DNA of 60,260 bases from positions 1-60,260 of the forward strand of contig LCMS01000003.1 of assembly GCA_001002765.1 (NCBI GenBank), read 5' to 3'. Below the pieces are notes generated by a model. The model made no database searches and was not told the origin of the DNA. It was given only the letters and a program-made list of their open reading frames with translations. This document shows, one piece after another, positions 33,388-58,400 of the stretch. The stretch is from Candidatus Uhrbacteria bacterium GW2011_GWE2_46_68. Its GTDB lineage: Bacteria; Patescibacteriota; Patescibacteriia; UBA9934; GWF2-40-263. The stretch's first letter is position 1; each line of letters opens with the position of its first letter. The position numbers and the translations under genes are program-made.

Positions 33388-33508
33388 AGTAACGAATATT
33401 CATGCGTGTAGCCAAGGAAGAGGGCTCAATCTTTTTCCCAAGCCACCGCGAGGAATTAGTAGCAAAAGAGTACCGAAAAAGAGTGTTTTCGTCAATCGGT
33501 CGTTGACG

Positions 33509-33536
33509 GTAGGGGCAAACGGCCGTTTGCCCCTAC
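33509..33536. repeat. GTAG-type REP-like palindrome, copy 2
   Basis: gtaggggcaaac-ggcc-gtttgcccctac, perfect inverted repeat. Confidence 0.75.
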
Positions 33537-33583
33537 CGATGAAACAACGAAAAAACCAGCGGTTAAGGCTGGTTCGTTGCCGC

Positions 33584-35374
33584 TTATTCTTGAGGCGGCT
33601 TTTTTGGAATCTTCATACCGAGGGCAAGTTGGATCAATCCCAAAGCTTCTTTTATTGGACCCATATCCCAATAATTCAAACAATATACATCCCAGAGGCT
33701 TGCCTCAGTTTTTTCCGCAAGTTCATAGATATAGAAGATGCCGCGATTTTGAAGTTTGAAACAGGTGGATTTCTGAAGGCCCAGCTGCTCCACAGGTTTC
33801 AGGAGATGTGGATTGGTGTCTGTAAGCACATCAGGGTCGGGAGGATGCCATCTCGGATGATTTTCTGGGAGTTTTGCTTTATCCATTTTCATTCCAAGAT
33901 AAAGACACATTTCCGCCAGAATTTCCTTGATCTCATAGAGCGATTTGCGACCAAAGTTCTTAGTCTTGAGCATATCGGCTTCCGTACGCTCTACTAACTG
34001 AAAGATATACTCGATTCCGGCGTTTTGGAGGCAGTTTGCTGCACGTACAGAAAGCTCAAGTTCATCTACACGTCTGAACAGATGTTCATTCAAAACTTCC
34101 TCATCTTCCATTTCCATGCCTGTCTCGGAAACAACCACAGGTTTTTGCTTCAACCACTCGATCATTGTGAGCGCTTCGTTCAGTTTTTCTTTAAGACCCG
34201 ATTGCGCCTCACCAATTTCCCCAAGGGTGATGGCTTCACTTTGCAGTATACAGAACGCGGCCTTTTTTCTCATATGATTGAGCGCTCCGTGAGATATGCG
34301 ATCAATCCAGATCCGTGAGAGGCCCATACCTTTTGCAATTTTTTCTGATTTCACCGGAGATTCATCAAATCCATAGATCTTACGGACAACAAAGCGCTCA
34401 CGTTCAGACAATTCTCCCATGAGCGTATCGAGCACATCGCACCATTCTTGTTTCCACACGGGCCAAATATTGTCACGCTCATTTCCTCCCGATGTAAGCA
34501 CCTTGATGATATCCCACTTATTTTCCGGAGGGAGGGTTGTTCCGGACGCAACTTCCCCCATATAGCGTTCAAAACAAAGGGTGATATTCCGCAGGATTTC
34601 TTTGGGTGATAGGCGTCTATTGAGGAGTTTTGGTTCCCCGATCATGGCCAAATACAGTCGCACATAGGGTTCTTGCACAGGGGTGAAGGACGGAGTTGCA
34701 AGGGTATGGGTGGCAATGAGGGTGCCATGTGTAAAGGCAAATATTTCGGACACTTGGAGATAGCGTCCCAAGACCTCGCCGTACCATTTCGCGTCTCCGA
34801 TCCCTTCTTCCACATACGTTCCGGCAGCTGCTTTTGCAACGCTTTCGGCATAGTCACAAAATACGTTTGCATAGGCTCGGCTTTCATCATGTTCTTTTGG
34901 GCAATATCCTTTTAGATCCAGTCGTACGACTTGGTAATCATATCCCGTGATGCGAGGAATGGCCGCCTTGCGGATTCCCAGCCGATAGAGTCGGCGTACC
35001 ACCGCTTGGCGACTGCAACTTGAATGATACCCTTCGTAAGGGTTCAGATTTTCATTGCGATCAAGCCATGACTGAAGGGCAAGACGAAGCACTTCTTTTT
35101 GTACATCCGAGAGCTGATCATTTTGCGCGTTTTCATCGAAGTTTTCGAGATAGGTATTTGCACGGATCACGACAAGATCAAGTTTTCTGGAAATTCCACG
35201 GTGCCATCCCGGAATATTTGCAAGACGAAGATATCCGGCTTCCCTAAGTTGATTATCTACGGATATCGGACACATATCAAAAATAATACCAATGTCCTCT
35301 CGCGCGATTCCAATGCGCACCAAGACTGCAGCAATCTGACCGATTTCTTTACGGGTAAAAGAGGAGATGTCCAT
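33584..35374 (-). CDS. Sigma-70 region 4 plus tandem RNAP alpha-CTD domain protein
   Basis: [14 protein letters not shown]...[15 protein letters not shown] (sigma4 HTH); [19 protein letters not shown]...[15 protein letters not shown] (alpha-CTD) and a degenerate second copy; AAGGAG precedes ATG 35374. Confidence 0.8.
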
Positions 35375-35439
35375 GGCGTACTCCTTGAAGTTGGAAGGAA
35401 CTGCCTGTTTCTTATCAAGGTCTAGGTGAGAAGTCAATC

Positions 35440-35477
35440 AAAAAACCACCATTTGCCTTGGGCTTTTGGTGGTTTTT
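35440..35477. terminator. Intrinsic terminator-like hairpin
   Basis: aaaaaaccacca...tggtggttttt. Confidence 0.7.
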
Positions 35478-35487
35478 GCGTGAAAAT

Positions 35488-35940
35488 TTAGGGAAGTTGC
35501 GCGTCCAGGAGTTTATCCATTTGTCCTTCGTTATAAGCATCCAAGACTCCCATGGCGTTTTCGCTTGCTCGGGTCACCAAGGGTAGGTGATCGGCAATAA
35601 CATGATTTGCCGAATCAAGATCATCACGATACGAGTCATTCCAGAAGTTTTGCATGTCTTTTTCCATAAAACTTTGCACTTCGGATAATGTTACGCGTCC
35701 GTTTTCCAAAAGAAGTGATACAGCTTTTTCTTTGGCCAAAGCGTCATAGTACGCATAATGATCATTCGTCCTTTCCGGCGCCACAAATCCTCGATCTTTT
35801 TTTCTTTCCTCAATCCTTCCTTGATAGTGTTCTTGTTTAATAAGAAGGAGATTACGTTGTTCTTCTTTTAAAATAACTTCAGTGTATTTTTTTTGAGGCG
35901 CTTCCCCTTCGACGGGGTGTAAACCGTGTTCTTGGCTCAT
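35488..35940 (-). CDS. Hypothetical protein
   Basis: 150-aa ORF filling the gap between terminator and dsbA-like gene. Confidence 0.65.
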   Translation of the reverse strand: MSQEHGLHPVEGEAPQKKYTEVILKEEQRNLLLIKQEHYQGRIEERKKDRGFVAPERTNDHYAYYDALAKEKAVSLLLENGRVTLSEVQSFMEKDMQNFWNDSYRDDLDSANHVIADHLPLVTRASENAMGVLDAYNEGQMDKLLDAQLP

Positions 35941-43062: not shown

Positions 43063-43143
43063 ATGAATAACGATGGGGAGTATAGCAGGGGGAAAGGGTG
43101 ATTTCAAGGCATCGATATGAGTGAATGGCCGTTTACCGCGGCG

Positions 43144-43171
43144 GTAGGGGCGAACGGTTGTTCGCCCCTAG
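43144..43171. repeat. GTAG-type REP-like palindrome, copy 3
   Basis: gtaggggcgaac-ggtt-gttcgcccctag. Confidence 0.7.
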
Positions 43172-43241
43172 AAAATGTTGTTTTCAATTTTCATGTTTTT
43201 TACAAAAGAAGGAAAAAAGAAAGGAGACCCAAGCAGGGGTC

Positions 43242-55472: not shown

Positions 55473-58400
55473 ATTTTTGTGATGTGTTTCCACGATTTTT
55501 GCAACACGCCCTGATTTTTCTCGCCGCCACTCTTGTAAGTCTGGGGGGTTGTTCAGTTGCTTACGCCGCTACCATCACCACAGCTCATGATATTCCGAGT
55601 TCCTTACAATTATCGCAATCTGTCGATCATGCCGTAACATTCACGACTCCCACAGGAGTCGCCGAAGGACAAACCATTATTTTTACTTTTTCTTCTGCGT
55701 TTGGAACAGGAGCGGTCGTTGAAAACGATATGGATATTTCTGATGATGGAGTTGATCTCACCACAGCTTCTGATTGTACGGGGAGCGAACAGGTTTCGGC
55801 TGTTATGGCAGCCGATATCCTCACCATGACCGTTTGTGCAGGGGATGGAGGATCCATCGCCGCCGGAAGCATCATCGTTGTAGAGATCGGTACCAATGCA
55901 ACCGCCTCGGGCACAGGATCCAATCAAATCACCAATCCTTCAACGGGCGGAACCTATTTTCTTGCGGTATCAGGAACATTCGGTGATCGAGGCACCATTC
56001 TTTACCCCATTTCTAGTAGCACCGATCAGGTGACCGTATCTGCCACAGTTTCCGTCACAGGTGGAGATGGCGGAGGAGGCTCCACCCCGACCGCGGACAC
56101 AACCGCACCCAGTATTTCCAGTATCACAGTTTCCGGTCTTACCGCATCTCAAGCCACTATTTCTTGGACAACCTCGGAAATGGCCACAAGCGCGGTGGAT
56201 TATGGAACAACAGCATCCTTTGGTTACACCTCTTCAAGTCCCTACACCTATGTCACTTCCCACAGCATAACTCTCACCGGACTTTCCGAAGGGCAGACCT
56301 ATTATTTCCGTGTTCGTTCTTCCGACACCTACAGCAATCAAGCGACCTCATCCACTCAAACGTTCACAACTCTCGATACCACTGCACCCGCGATCACAAT
56401 GATCGAGGTTGTAGACATCACGACAAGTTCGGCGCGTGCGACCTGGACGACAAATGAGTCAGCAACCAGTGTGATCGAATACGGGACAACGACAAGTTAC
56501 GGTTCCACATCATCTGACCTTTCTTTTGTCACATCACATTCAATACTTCTTACAGGTTTAACTGATGGAACGACCTATCACTTTTTTGTGCAGTCATCAG
56601 ACGCGTCAGGGAACAGCACCACATCAAGCGATCAAACATTTACAACAGACGCAGACGACGTTCCTGCCAATGTCTCTAGCTTGACCGTTACCGAAGAGGA
56701 TACACAACTCACACTCTCCTGGATCAATCCTTCCGATACTGATTTGACAGGCATTCGCGGACTTATTTGTACGGACGGGTACCCGACTTCCCCAAGTGAT
56801 ACGGATTGCACGGTCATATTTGATGGTCTTTTGACCTCGTTTATCGCCACCGGACTCATGAATGACACGACTTATTATTTTGGAGTGTTTGCTTATGATG
56901 CGGCTTTACAATTTGCTTCTGGGGCCCTTGCATCGGGTATGCCAAGAGCTTCAGAAGAAGAATTGCCAAGCGATGAGGAGACTCCTGACGAAGAAGATCC
57001 GGGGGATGATGATATCCCCGGTGATGAAGACGTCCCCGGAGATGATGACACTCCCGGCGATGAGGAGACTCCTATCGAAGAAGGCGAAGAAGATGAGGGA
57101 CAACCTCCTTCTGATACCACAGGGGAAACCAAAACCTGCGGTGATGGTGTGTGTGCCGGCGAAGAGACGCTGGCAATTTGCCCTGATGATTGTGGGGAAG
57201 ACGTTCCACCACAAGAAGGGGAGACTATTGAGCCGTCCGAAGAAGGAGGGAACATGCAGTTCCTTGTCGCAGAAGATTCCCTGTCACTTTTCACAACGGA
57301 CTCCGGTGTTGTGAAAATACTGCCAGAGACTCTTGTGCACCTTGTTTTTGAATCCGTTCAACCAGAGGAGGGGATTTCCATTCTCATTACTTTGGATGAT
57401 CAAACCTATCTTTTGACCCCCACCGTGTCAAAAGAAGGAAACGTTTTTTTTGAAGCGGAGATCCTATCTCCTCTAACCCCTGGTTTGTTCCCTCTGATTC
57501 TTACGACCATCCTTCAAGGCGGAACAATCACCACACAAATATTCACCATTGAGATCGAAGGCTACGGGTATGCCTTCGAAATCAAGGGGGAAGAACAAGT
57601 GATAATCGGGGATACGGTTTTCACCCTCTACGCTGAGGATGGAACCGTTTGGGACAGCTCTCCTTTTTTTCAGTGGAATCCGTTTTCCTCAGATACTTCT
57701 GGGCAGTATGCCTGGTATGTACCTAATGGATCCTATGTGGTGCGTGCGCAACATGAAGGATATCAGATGGCTCAAAGTGCATGGGTGACGGTTGCCGATC
57801 ATGTGTTTGCCGTTTCCATTGAGATGTCTCCTCTGGTGGTTCAGCCTTTTTTTGAAGGTCAAACCATTTTTTCAGGAGGCGCTTCGTTTTTATCTGATGT
57901 TGTCCCACAGATCGAACAAACTCAACAAGCAATCCAAGACCTTCCTGGAGTTGAGACTGCTATCGATATTTCGGTTCCGGTTTTGGTTATAAACGCCGGA
58001 GCAGGCGTTCTTCTCATGGGGTCGGCGTTTAATCTTCTGCCGTTCCTTCAATATCTTTTCACTTCTCCTTTATTGTTGTTTTGGAGGAAAAAGCGACAAA
58101 AGTATGGGGTGGTGTATCACGCATATCGCAAGACCCCCGTGGATTTGGCCACCGTGCGTCTCTATCGCCTTACTGGAAAAACAACCGAGGGAACATTCTT
58201 AGGAAAGTTGGTGAAGAGTTGTGTAACAAATAAAGAAGGAAAATACGCCTTCTTTGCTCCCCCTGGAAAATATTACCTGACGATTTCCAAATCAGGATAC
58301 ACGTTTCCTTCCAACTATTTGGTGCAAGAGAAAACCGATGGAAATTTTCTCGATGTTTATCATGGGGAAGAAGTGGAGGTGACAAGTGACAGCGCTCTTT

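What the first reader, a model, noticed from the sequence alone, without database searches (positions are those of the whole stretch)
33584..35374. Sigma4 plus double alpha-CTD fusion: a possible RNA polymerase mimic
One 596-aa protein carries two N-terminal HTH-like segments, a sigma-70 region-4 HTH, a short coiled coil, a well-conserved alpha-CTD (including the DNA-contacting SVRAANCL and NFGRKS motifs) and a degenerate second alpha-CTD. I see no sigma region 2. In holoenzyme, sigma4 binds -35 and alpha-CTD binds the adjacent UP element and activators, so the fusion could occlude promoters, titrate activators or redirect RNAP, in its own cell or a host. It has a strong SD site, its own upstream terminator and a downstream REP, consistent with an inserted accessory gene.
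Basis: partly seen in the sequence, partly recalled or inferred. Interest (0 to 1): 0.72.

Follow-up and report, generated by a model that had tools for sequence, protein, structure and literature searches.

The report
Sigma-4 plus alpha-CTD fusion regulator
An ultra-small groundwater bacterium whose RNA polymerase alpha subunit has lost its DNA-binding tail carries a separate, real gene that joins copies of the two polymerase parts that read the upstream half of promoters; the gene belongs to a rare, unstudied protein family and is most likely an optional DNA-binding regulator, not a polymerase subunit.

Summary
Window 33584..35374 (-) encodes a 596-aa protein with these parts:
- a family-specific HTH plus helical-bundle domain, whose first half is weakly duplicated at the N-terminus;
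- a primary-sigma-type region 4 (Pfam 25.6 bits, gathering cut-off 24.1);
- a long helix;
- a canonical alpha-CTD (E=3e-27);
- a degenerate second alpha-CTD.

No sigma region 2/3 is detectable.

It is not a chimera. At least 31 cluster representatives share the architecture, and homologues at 75% and 42% identity keep the same neighbours.

The genome is Uhrbacteria-like Patescibacteria. Its own RpoA is 247 aa with no alpha-CTD, as in all 40 relatives examined, and only 15 of 151 genomes of the class have any alpha-CTD. The fusion's alpha-CTD is 74-90% identical to some non-CPR RpoA tails but only 21-41% identical to Patescibacteria ones.

The gene is optional. It occurs in 14 of 121 genomes of the order, and elsewhere it coexists with full-length RpoA. 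It is therefore not an obligatory replacement subunit. In this copy four of the five -35-reading residues of sigma-4 are changed, while the alpha-CTD DNA contacts are intact.

Best reading: an accessory DNA-binding transcription regulator. No function has been tested. I found no paper on the family, although this scan has met it before.

The parts
33584..35374 (-). Whole gene, 596 aa plus stop (protein P0001)
   Evidence: ORF list and translation. The ATG start is supported by the homologues' N-termini and by the conserved SD and ATG in the alignment of upstream regions.
35039..35374 (-). N-terminal extension, aa 1-112: an HTH (aa 8-45) plus helices. It is a probable partial duplication of the first half of the family-specific domain and occurs only in the ~500-600-aa 'long' members.
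   Evidence: AlphaFold model pLDDT >90 for most of the segment. hhalign against the X-domain profile aligns aa 12-110 collinearly with profile positions 11-102; this is weak (probability 24%, E=8e-4). The ~400-aa members begin at the equivalent of aa ~115.
34439..35038 (-). Family-specific 'X' domain, aa 113-312: an HTH (aa 122-153) followed by a helical bundle, ending in the nearly invariant I-x-P-x-W motif.
   Evidence: The domain model has pLDDT 93 and pTM 0.84. Foldseek finds no significant PDB match; the best is E=0.5, a weak TetR-like resemblance only. No Pfam family. No homology to RpoD regions 1.2-3. Conserved across 20-38 family members.
34235..34438 (-). Sigma-70 region 4 domain, aa 313-380 (Pfam match 319-370). 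It is of the primary-sigma type, but the -35-reading residues have diverged.
   Evidence: PF04545 E=8.5e-6, 25.6 bits against a cut-off of 24.1. The family profile matches the C-terminal region 4 of RpoD/SigA chains in PDB at E about 1e-20 to 1e-23. hhalign to the genome's own RpoD residues 349-412 gives probability 97.7%. At the sigma70 positions this copy has R584=R, E585=I, R586=W, R588=D, Q589=R.
34145..34225 (-). Long single helix, aa 384-410. It is a possible coiled-coil or spacer and is followed by a disordered linker (aa 411-424, window 34103-34144).
   Evidence: DSSP on the AlphaFold model gives H384-410; pLDDT is <50 for aa 414-427. Oligomerisation was not tested.
33905..34102 (-). 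Canonical alpha-CTD, aa 425-490, with all DNA-contact residues and the acidic '261 determinant' retained.
   Evidence: PF03118 E=3e-27. Foldseek gives TM 0.87-0.95 and rmsd 0.6-1.5 A to E. coli, Caulobacter and Vibrio alpha-CTD structures, including 3N97, 1LB2 and 9ZUM. R265, N268, C269, G296, K298, S299, D258, E259 and E261 equivalents are present.
33605..33823 (-). Degenerate second alpha-CTD, about aa 518-590. It is a tandem duplicate found only in this protein and its 75%-identical homologue.
   Evidence: TIGR02027 positions 229-297, E=0.004. BLASTP against the first alpha-CTD gives 39% identity, E=2e-14. pLDDT is 53-79. DNA-contact residues are replaced (read from the alignment). It is absent from P0003-P0008.
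35409..35437 (-). Promoter-like site: TTGACT (35432-35437), a 17-nt spacer, then TAAGAA (35409-35414). The SD AAGGAG lies at 35381-35386.
   Evidence: Read from the sequence. TTGAC(T/G), the spacing, TAA.AA and GGAG are conserved upstream of the 75% and 42% homologues. This is a consensus match only; no transcription data are available.
35440..35473 (-). Hairpin plus T-run (ACCACCA ... TGGTGGT TTTTT) directly after the upstream 150-aa ORF. It is a terminator-like site that separates the two genes.
   Evidence: Sequence. The stem is kept through compensatory changes in two relatives.
33545..33575 (-). Terminator-like hairpin (GAACCAGC..GCTGGTT) plus T-run, 9 nt after the stop codon.
   Evidence: Consensus scan. 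The same hairpin follows the gene in the P0002 and P0004 contigs (printout).
33508..33537 (.). REP-like 30-nt perfect palindrome GGTAGGGGCAAACGGCCGTTTGCCCCTACC, lying between the gene and the rpsO promoter-like site. It is probably not a functional part of the gene.
   Evidence: Unique in the window at 3 mismatches. The genome holds at least 13 copies at 5 or fewer mismatches, all intergenic, with compensatory arm changes. It is absent at this position in relatives.

Best explanation
**What it is.** The gene encodes an optional, chromosomally encoded, free-standing transcription regulator. It belongs to a small family seen so far almost only in Patescibacteria.

**How it is built.** A family-specific HTH plus helical-bundle domain is followed by two modules taken over from RNA polymerase. 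The first is region 4 of the primary sigma factor. [quoted passage not shown] A long helix and a flexible linker join them.

**Inferred mechanism.**
- The intact alpha-CTD binds the minor groove of A/T-rich DNA, as it does at UP elements.
- The neighbouring HTH modules (sigma-4-like, X-domain HTH, N-terminal HTH) read adjacent major-groove sites.
- The protein would therefore sit on promoter-upstream DNA and change RNA polymerase access, either by repression through occlusion or by architectural activation.

**This copy.** Sigma-4 has lost the canonical -35-reading side chains, so its target is not an ordinary TTGACA hexamer. The second alpha-CTD is a decayed duplicate.

**Shown versus inferred.** Shown: the domain composition, the family, the distribution, and the retention of the DNA-contact residues. 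Inferred: DNA binding, the target sites and the regulatory outcome.
For: - **Real, conserved architecture.** Of 38 family members, 32 have Sigma70_r4 and 31 have RNA_pol_A_CTD. The models are confident.
- **Alpha-CTD DNA contacts are almost universally retained in the family.** Counts over the 38 alignment rows: R265 in 30, N268 in 28, C269 in 29, G296 in 29, K298 in 24, S299 in 24; most of the remaining rows have a gap there. The alpha-CTD superposes on DNA-bound alpha-CTD structures at rmsd about 1 A.
- **Sigma-4 is of the primary-sigma type**. About half of the members keep the canonical [10 protein letters not shown] recognition helix.
- **No sigma-2/3**, so it cannot act as an initiation factor.
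- **No alpha-NTD**, so it cannot assemble into core RNAP.
- **Optional.** It is present in 14 of 121 genomes of the order, patchily even within genera. At the same threshold it is in 3 of 401 across the phylum. Three members in other classes coexist with full-length RpoA: G401, G170 and G559.
- **Independent transcription unit.** A conserved promoter-like site, SD and terminators flank it at a conserved syntenic position next to rpsO. Contexts elsewhere are ordinary chromosomal ones with no shared operon.
Against:
- The whole alpha-CTD surface is conserved far beyond what DNA binding alone needs. It is 74-90% identical to some non-CPR RpoA alpha-CTDs, while the rest of the protein falls to 28% identity within the subfamily. 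This hints at additional protein partners.
- The sigma-4 module could dock on the RNAP beta flap instead of on DNA.
- At E<=1e-26 the family is roughly 20 times more frequent in this alpha-CTD-less order (13 of 120 other genomes) than outside the class (2 of 374). That would also fit an RNAP-linked role. The search profile is biased towards this lineage.
Confidence: 0.5

Rival explanations
1. **Detachable polymerase accessory subunit.** In a lineage whose alpha subunit has no CTD, the protein docks on RNAP. The docking surface would be its sigma-4-like domain on the beta flap, or its X domain elsewhere. It would supply an alpha-CTD in trans and so give UP-element-type upstream contacts at a subset of promoters.
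For: - The genome's own RpoA is 247 aa and NTD-only, in the canonical rpsM-rpsK-rpsD-rpoA-rplQ operon.
- All 40 family and order relatives share this. Only 15 of 151 genomes of the class have any alpha-CTD. The 120 best RpoA homologues are 204-270 aa without PF03118.
- The family is much commoner in this order (14 of 121) than across the phylum (3 of 401 at the same threshold).
- The sigma-4 is of the primary-sigma type, including the C-terminal helix.
- The alpha-CTD keeps the acidic 261 determinant, which contacts sigma-4 in E. coli (the role of that determinant is established knowledge, PDB 3N97).
Against: - 107 of 121 genomes of the order lack the gene and still have alpha-CTD-less RNAP.
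- Family members coexist with full-length RpoA in G401, G170 and G559. The G044 member has no alpha-CTD at all.
- The genome's RpoD has an intact region 4, which would compete for the flap.
- The RpoD tail reads EKIQANTII where E. coli has RKLRHPSRS. It therefore lacks the basic patch that contacts alpha-CTD in E. coli (compared with the sigma70 sequence from memory).
Confidence: 0.2
2. **RNA polymerase mimic or decoy.** By presenting RNAP's own upstream-reading modules, the protein would compete with holoenzyme for -35/UP DNA. Alternatively it would titrate factors that normally bind alpha-CTD or sigma-4.
For: - The architecture reproduces in one chain the alpha-CTD/sigma-4/(UP,-35) complex of PDB 3N97, which is among the best structural matches.
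- Many ~400-aa members keep a near-canonical sigma70 region 4.2, including the RKLRHPSRS tail.
- Promoter-like sites in this lineage use TTGAC(G/T) -35 hexamers.
Against: - In this copy the -35-reading residues are replaced: E585I, R586W, R588D, Q589R.
- The cell's RNAP has no alpha-CTD, so there is nothing to mimic in cis.
- No partner proteins are known.
Confidence: 0.15
3. **Host-directed effector.** These bacteria are thought to live attached to other bacteria. The protein would carry an alpha-CTD (and, in other family members, a sigma-4) that looks like that of classical bacteria, so that it can interfere with a host cell's transcription factors or promoters.
For: - The alpha-CTD is 74-90% identical to RpoA alpha-CTDs of MAGs labelled Myxococcota or Proteobacteria, and 56% identical to E. 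coli. It is only 21-41% identical to 24 Patescibacteria RpoA alpha-CTDs.
- That conservation has been held while the rest of the protein diverged.
Against: - No signal peptide, secretion motif or secretion-system neighbourhood was seen.
- The gene context is housekeeping (rpsO, pnp).
- The reference RpoA set was chosen by similarity to the query, so the comparison is biased.
- Consensus-like sequence may simply reflect slow evolution.
Confidence: 0.03
4. **Assembly artefact or decaying pseudogene.** The ORF would be a chimera of rpoA and rpoD fragments.
For: None beyond the unusual domain combination.
Against: - The same architecture occurs on independent contigs from different samples, with conserved synteny.
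- 31-32 of 38 cluster representatives share it.
- The genome's rpoA has no alpha-CTD to donate, and its rpoD region 4 has a different sequence.
- The ORF is uninterrupted and models with high confidence.
Confidence: 0.01

Closest known systems
Alpha-CTD / sigma region 4 / (UP, -35) DNA ternary complex of bacterial RNAP holoenzyme (PDB 3N97)
   Same: It has the same two modules: a primary-sigma-type region 4 and an alpha-CTD with the 265 and 261 determinants. In holoenzyme these sit side by side on promoter-upstream DNA. 3N97 chains are among the best structural matches, TM about 0.9.
   Different: - Here both modules lie in one polypeptide, in the order sigma-4 then alpha-CTD, joined by a helix and linker and preceded by a novel domain.
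- There is no sigma-2/3 and no alpha-NTD, so no known route into the polymerase.
- This copy's sigma-4 lacks the -35-reading residues.
RNA polymerase alpha subunit RpoA (TIGR02027; PF01000 + PF01193 + PF03118)
   Same: The alpha-CTD fold and all DNA-contact residues are shared. NCBI names relatives 'alpha C-terminal domain-containing protein'.
   Different: - It has no N-terminal assembly domain.
- It is not in the ribosomal-protein operon.
- The real rpoA lies elsewhere and is itself CTD-less.
Primary sigma factor RpoD/SigA, region 4 (PF04545)
   Same: The region 4.1/4.2 fold and sequence signature are shared. The family profile scores 76-86 bits against RpoD/SigA structures.
   Different: - Regions 1.2-3 are absent.
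- JGI's label 'sigma-70 family' for one relative is therefore misleading.
- The recognition helix has diverged in this copy.
Alpha-CTD-less RNAP of Parcubacteria/CPR and of extreme endosymbionts (PMC8321222)
   Same: The host genome shows the published phenomenon: an alpha subunit with the NTD only.
   Different: The paper does not describe free-standing alpha-CTD proteins. Here an alpha-CTD survives, or was regained, on another protein in a minority of such genomes.
One-component HTH regulators with an N-terminal HTH and a helical bundle (TetR-like layout)
   Same: The X domain has an N-terminal three-helix HTH followed by an all-helical bundle. TetR-family structures are the weak top Foldseek matches.
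   Different: The matches are not significant (E>=0.5, TM about 0.2), and no ligand pocket or dimer interface was shown. This is a resemblance of layout only.

Membership tests
RpoA, RNA polymerase alpha subunit (TIGR02027) | N-terminal dimerisation and assembly domain (PF01000 RNA_pol_A_bac / PF01193 RNA_pol_L) | tested here: not met
   Pfam finds only PF03118 and PF04545. TIGR02027 matches only model positions 197-297, at 99.6 bits against a cut-off of 227.8. The genome's only PF01000 match is at C7.
RpoA, RNA polymerase alpha subunit (TIGR02027) | C-terminal domain PF03118 with DNA-contact residues | tested here: met
   E=3e-27. R265, N268, C269, G296, K298 and S299 equivalents are present.
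RpoA, RNA polymerase alpha subunit (TIGR02027) | Position in the rpsM-rpsK-rpsD-rpoA-rplQ operon | tested here: not met
   The gene lies between a DsbA-like gene plus a 150-aa ORF and rpsO-NYN-pnp. The operon copy is at G000:C7.
Sigma-70 family sigma factor | Region 2 (core binding, -10 recognition; PF04542) | tested here: not met
   No Pfam or NCBIfam match outside region 4. hhalign of the X-domain profile against RpoD 1-349 gives probability 0.2%. Foldseek on the X-domain model finds no sigma structure.
Sigma-70 family sigma factor | Region 4 HTH (PF04545) | tested here: met
   25.6 bits against a cut-off of 24.1. hhalign to the genome's own RpoD region 4 gives probability 97.7%. The family profile against PDB sigma-A chains gives E about 1e-20 to 1e-23.
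Sigma-70 family sigma factor | Canonical -35-contacting residues of region 4.2 (sigma70 R584, E585, R586, R588, Q589) | tested here: not met
   This copy has R, I, W, D, R at these positions. Among the 38 family sequences the canonical residue is kept in 16-27, depending on the position. The numbering was mapped through the genome's own RpoD and the E. coli sequence from memory.
Sigma-4/alpha-CTD fusion family (undescribed; Patescibacteria) | Family-specific HTH plus helical domain ending in I-x-P-x-W, directly followed by sigma region 4 | tested here: met
   phmmer with aa 1-410 finds 35 cluster representatives. Profile A3 matches the window gene over positions 4-276 of 276, E=9.5e-89. W307 and P305 are invariant or nearly invariant.
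Sigma-4/alpha-CTD fusion family (undescribed; Patescibacteria) | C-terminal alpha-CTD after a helix and linker | tested here: met
   31 of 38 members, including this one, carry PF03118. Some members (G044 and 7 of the 38) lack it.
RNAP-docking accessory factor (works-like claim, not a family) | Physical binding to RNAP core or the beta flap | not testable with these tools
   No complex prediction or interaction data are available.

The most novel reading that the evidence does not exclude
[quoted passage not shown] In this reading the family acts as a detachable 'upstream promoter-recognition head'. It would dock on RNA polymerase through the sigma-4-like or X domain and give back an alpha-CTD at a private set of promoters. 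A normally built-in polymerase module would thus become an optional, regulated, trans-acting subunit.
Probability: 0.15. Interest if true: 0.85.

Novelty: new variant of a known kind. Interest (0 to 1): 0.6.

Why it matters
Alpha-CTD and sigma region 4 are the two RNAP modules that read the upstream half of bacterial promoters, and most activators contact them. Three things make this case worth attention:
- Both modules are hard-wired into one free-standing protein.
- The host lineage's polymerase has dispensed with alpha-CTD altogether.
- The fused alpha-CTD is kept more 'classical' than the alpha-CTDs of the organism's own phylum.

Together these give a natural experiment on what the modules can do outside the holoenzyme. 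If the protein docks on RNAP, it would be a new kind of exchangeable promoter-recognition subunit. If it only binds DNA, it shows how polymerase parts are recycled into regulators in bacteria that have very few transcription factors. Either way the family is easy to test in vitro with standard E. coli tools, namely alpha-deltaCTD RNAP and UP-element promoters.

Tried and rejected
1. **X domain as a diverged sigma-2/3.** Rejected. hhalign against the genome's own RpoD aligns only region 4. The X-domain model has no sigma hit in PDB. The 330-380-column Foldseek alignments of the full model to sigma chains have TM 0.13-0.15 and rmsd above 19 A. The long tblastn alignments to plasmid RpoD are carried by region 4.
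2. **A partner sigma lacking region 4.** Rejected. The genome has one complete RpoD. The only other weak 'sigma-3' hit, at C22, is on a 410-aa ORF that I read as exonuclease VII large subunit (XseA) from its sequence alone, without a family search, and treat as spurious.
3. **Obligatory trans-complementation of alpha-CTD-less RpoA.** Rejected by distribution.
4. **Phage or plasmid carriage.**
   - tblastn against INPHARED and PLSDB gave only region-4 or alpha-CTD pieces. Those under annotated features lay on rpoD or rpoA genes. The one 'Bacteriophage sp.' contig I opened (MT837710.1) is a bacterial rpsK-rpsD-rpoA-rplQ fragment.
   - An IMG/VR scan with the X-domain pattern found nothing.
5. 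**The 30-nt palindrome as the protein's operator.** It looked attractive: three of about 14 genomic copies flank the two alpha-CTD genes. It is absent or replaced by a different hairpin at the same position in relatives, and its arms covary like a REP hairpin. I treat it as a mobile REP-like element.
6. **PDB 8VD6 'CAP repeat' match to the HTH.** This is a de novo designed repeat protein (PMC12339374) and is irrelevant.
7. **Genome-contig scan with aa 1-410.** No relatives found.
9. **HGT origin of the alpha-CTD.** Not resolved. My non-CPR reference set was chosen by similarity to the query, so I built no tree.
Full report
**1. What is in the sequence**

- Window 33584..35374 (-) is an uninterrupted ORF of 596 codons.
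- The frame is open up to a TTG at 35437, but three things point to the ATG at 35374:
  - It is preceded at 6 nt by AAGGAG.
  - The homologues start at the same Met (MDIS/MDIT/MDLT/MKLQ).
  - The TTG lies inside a TTGACT-N17-TAAGAA promoter-like site that is conserved upstream of homologues at 75% and 42% identity.
- A hairpin with a T-run follows the preceding 150-aa ORF. A second terminator-like hairpin follows the stop codon. The same hairpins occur in the relatives.
- The gene is therefore its own transcription unit. Its base composition is unremarkable.

**2. Domains**

- Pfam gives RNA_pol_A_CTD at aa 425-488 (E=3e-27) and Sigma70_r4 at aa 319-370 (25.6 bits, cut-off 24.1).
- NCBIfam rpoA models match only their C-terminal third.
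- A second, degenerate alpha-CTD lies at about aa 518-590:
  - It matches TIGR02027 positions 229-297 at E=0.004.
  - It is 39% identical to the first, E=2e-14.
  - It has lost the equivalents of R265, N268, C269, G296, K298 and S299.
  - It models at only pLDDT 53-79.
  - It exists only here and in the 75% homologue.
- An AlphaFold model built on a 38-sequence family alignment has mean pLDDT 86.9. It shows:
  - an N-terminal HTH plus helices (aa 1-112);
  - a second HTH plus helical bundle (aa 113-312);
  - sigma-4;
  - one long helix (aa 384-410);
  - a disordered linker;
  - the alpha-CTD.
- The alpha-CTD superposes on solved alpha-CTDs, including DNA-bound ones (3N97, 1LB2, 9ZUM), at TM about 0.9 and rmsd 0.6-1.5 A.
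- The middle 'X' domain, modelled alone, has pLDDT 93 and pTM 0.84.
  - It has no significant PDB neighbour: best E=0.5, with weak TetR-like layouts.
  - It shows no homology to RpoD regions 1.2-3: hhalign probability 0.2%, and only region 4 aligns at probability 97.7%.
- The N-terminal 112 residues align collinearly, but weakly, with the first half of the X domain (probability 24%). This suggests a partial duplication.

**3. It is a family, not an artefact**

- phmmer with aa 1-410 against 1.84 billion cluster representatives finds 35 proteins. About ten are ~500 aa. About 25 are ~400 aa and begin at the equivalent of aa ~115.
- Of 38 members scanned, 32 carry Sigma70_r4 (best E=9e-20) and 31 carry RNA_pol_A_CTD.
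- The family profile matches the C-terminal region 4 of RpoD/SigA structures at E about 1e-20 to 1e-23, and alpha-CTDs at E about 1e-31 to 1e-36.
- Many short members have an almost textbook region 4.2 (LTEREAKVIRMRFG...[23 protein letters not shown]).
- Contigs carrying the 75% and 42% homologues keep the order xerC-like, dsbA-like, 150-aa ORF, fusion, rpsO, NYN, pnp.
- Other members sit in ordinary chromosomal contexts of small genomes.
- A scan of species-representative genomes with the X-domain pattern returned five loci: three 'Patescibacteria group bacterium', one unclassified, and one third-party-annotation MAG labelled Gammaproteobacteria.
- I found no evidence of phage or plasmid carriage. 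Details are in the tried-and-rejected field.

**4. The polymerase of the host**

- The genome is 1.06 Mb and 99% complete.
- Its best named RpoA relatives are Candidatus Uhrbacteria.
- Its rpoA lies in the canonical infA-rpsM-rpsK-rpsD-rpoA-rplQ array. It encodes 247 aa ending in an acidic tail, and it matches TIGR02027 positions 2-229 only.
- All 40 family and order relatives have the same truncation.
- In the class, only 15 of 151 genomes have any PF03118 match.
- The 120 best RpoA homologues are 204-270 aa without PF03118.
- Most other Patescibacteria sampled have full-length RpoA.
- The loss of alpha-CTD in Parcubacteria is mentioned in the literature (PMC8321222), so that part is not new.
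- The genome has one complete RpoD. Its C-terminal tail (EKIQANTII) lacks the basic RKLRHPSRS patch that contacts alpha-CTD and activators in E. coli; the E. coli sequence is from memory.
- One further alpha-CTD protein exists: 256 aa at C2, with the alpha-CTD at its N-terminus.

**5. What the distribution says**

- With a profile of the X domain plus sigma-4 at E<=1e-26, the counts are:

| Sample | Genomes with a match |
|---|---|
| Own order | 14 of 121 |
| Whole phylum | 3 of 401 |

- Within the order the distribution is patchy even inside genera, for example G016 against G598, G604 and G608.
- The three phylum-wide matches are G000, G401 and G044.
- G401, G170 and G559, all from other classes, carry alpha-CTD-bearing members next to full-length RpoA. 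The G044 member has no alpha-CTD.
- The protein therefore cannot be the general substitute for the missing alpha-CTD.
- It is, however, clearly commoner in the alpha-CTD-less order. Two caveats apply: the profile is biased towards this lineage, and the genomes are not phylogenetically independent.

**6. Residue-level reading**

- Across the family the alpha-CTD DNA-contact residues are retained in 24-30 of the 38 alignment rows, and most of the remaining rows have a gap there. The acidic 258/259/261 positions are mostly retained as well.
- The sigma-4 recognition-helix residues are canonical in about half of the members.
- In this copy they read R, I, W, D, R in place of R584, E585, R586, R588, Q589.
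- The alpha-CTD of this protein is:
  - 74-90% identical to a set of non-CPR RpoA alpha-CTDs from MAGs labelled Myxococcota, Delta- or Alphaproteobacteria;
  - 56% identical to E. coli;
  - 21-41% identical to 24 Patescibacteria RpoA alpha-CTDs.
- Within the long subfamily the alpha-CTD stays near-invariant while the rest of the protein drops to 28% identity.
- Selection this strong on the whole domain is not explained by DNA binding alone. It remains the main open observation.

**7. Mechanism**

- The protein has no sigma-2 and no alpha-NTD, so it cannot be a sigma factor or a core subunit.
- The best-supported reading (0.5) is a free-standing regulator. It would use the alpha-CTD as a minor-groove A/T reader next to one or more HTH modules on promoter-upstream DNA.
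- The main rival (0.2) is a detachable RNAP accessory subunit that brings an alpha-CTD to a CTD-less polymerase.
- A host-directed effector (0.03) and an artefact (0.01) are unlikely.
- None of these has experimental support.

**8. Relation to earlier notes of this scan**

- I read these notes after forming the reading above.
- Several agents have met the same fusion family in other CPR genomes. Separately, others have met alpha-CTD-less RpoA.
- My results agree on the reality of the architecture, on the canonical alpha-CTD and on the lineage-wide loss from RpoA.
- I could not reproduce the suggestion that phages carry the module.
- New here:
  - the two phenomena occur together in one genome;
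  - the presence counts in the order against the phylum;
  - the conserved synteny and promoter;
  - the N-terminal and alpha-CTD duplications specific to this copy.

**9. Novelty**

- I found no paper on a sigma-4/alpha-CTD fusion.
- Database names for relatives are generic or wrong.
- The parts are well known, but the combination and its setting are uncharacterised. I therefore rate it a new variant of a known kind, with interest 0.6.

Noticed in passing
G000:C7:52071-52811 (locus L008 4069..4812, - strand); outside the window: The genome's rpoA encodes only the alpha-NTD: 247 aa with an acidic tail ...HRTEQENFTTEEDR and no AT-hook or Lys tail. It sits in the canonical operon. The same truncation occurs in all 40 family and order relatives, and alpha-CTD is almost absent from the class (15 of 151 genomes). 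The loss in Parcubacteria is mentioned in PMC8321222.
   Followed up: yes
G000:C2:55133-55903 (locus L002 985..1755, - strand); outside the window: This is a second free-standing alpha-CTD protein of 256 aa. The alpha-CTD lies at the N-terminus (PF03118, E=1.4e-14), followed by about 170 aa with no Pfam match. The gene is flanked on both sides by copies of the REP-like palindrome (C2:55045-55074 and 55909-55938).
   Followed up: partly
window 33508-33537 and 43143-43172; 11 further copies on C1, C2, C8 and C18: A dispersed 30-nt GC-rich palindrome family, GGTAGGGGCRAACGGCCGTTYGCCCCTACC, has at least 13 copies, all intergenic. Its two arms change in a compensatory way, so it is REP-like. Three copies flank the two alpha-CTD genes. 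Relatives carry a different hairpin or none at the same position, so this is probably coincidental.
   Followed up: partly
G000:C4, locus L009 2305..3156 (+), directly after rpoD: A 283-aa IS200-like Y1 transposase (PF01797, E=3.5e-9) lies directly after rpoD. It is a RAYT-like candidate that could mobilise the REP-like palindromes. No link was tested.
   Followed up: no
G000:C4, locus L009 958..2214 (+): The only sigma factor, RpoD (418 aa), ends ...AKALEKIQANTIINKLRDY. It lacks the basic RKLRHPSRS tail that contacts alpha-CTD and activators in E. coli sigma70. This is consistent with a polymerase that has no alpha-CTD.
   Followed up: partly
window 35488-35940 (-): A 150-aa ORF directly upstream has no significant Pfam match. 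It is conserved in the same position next to the fusion gene in relatives (150-152 aa). Its function is unknown.
   Followed up: no
protein P0007 (NCBI: Candidatus Uhrbacteria bacterium GW2011_GWE2_45..., annotated as RNA polymerase subunit alpha): This 327-aa protein carries two tandem canonical alpha-CTDs and no alpha-NTD. It is another free-standing alpha-CTD architecture in the same candidate phylum, and it is mis-annotated as rpoA.
   Followed up: no
window 33388-33500 (-), and the same position in loci L024 and L026: The rpsO promoter-like site TTGACG-N17-TACTCT (TACGCT in one relative) is conserved across three species. This suggests that the lineage uses classical -35 hexamers even though its RNAP lacks alpha-CTD.
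   Followed up: no
INPHARED record MT837710.1 (locus L064): This 'Bacteriophage sp.' contig from human faeces is a bacterial rpsK-rpsD-rpoA-rplQ operon fragment. It is a contaminant in the phage collection and produces false 'phage alpha-CTD' hits.
   Followed up: yes
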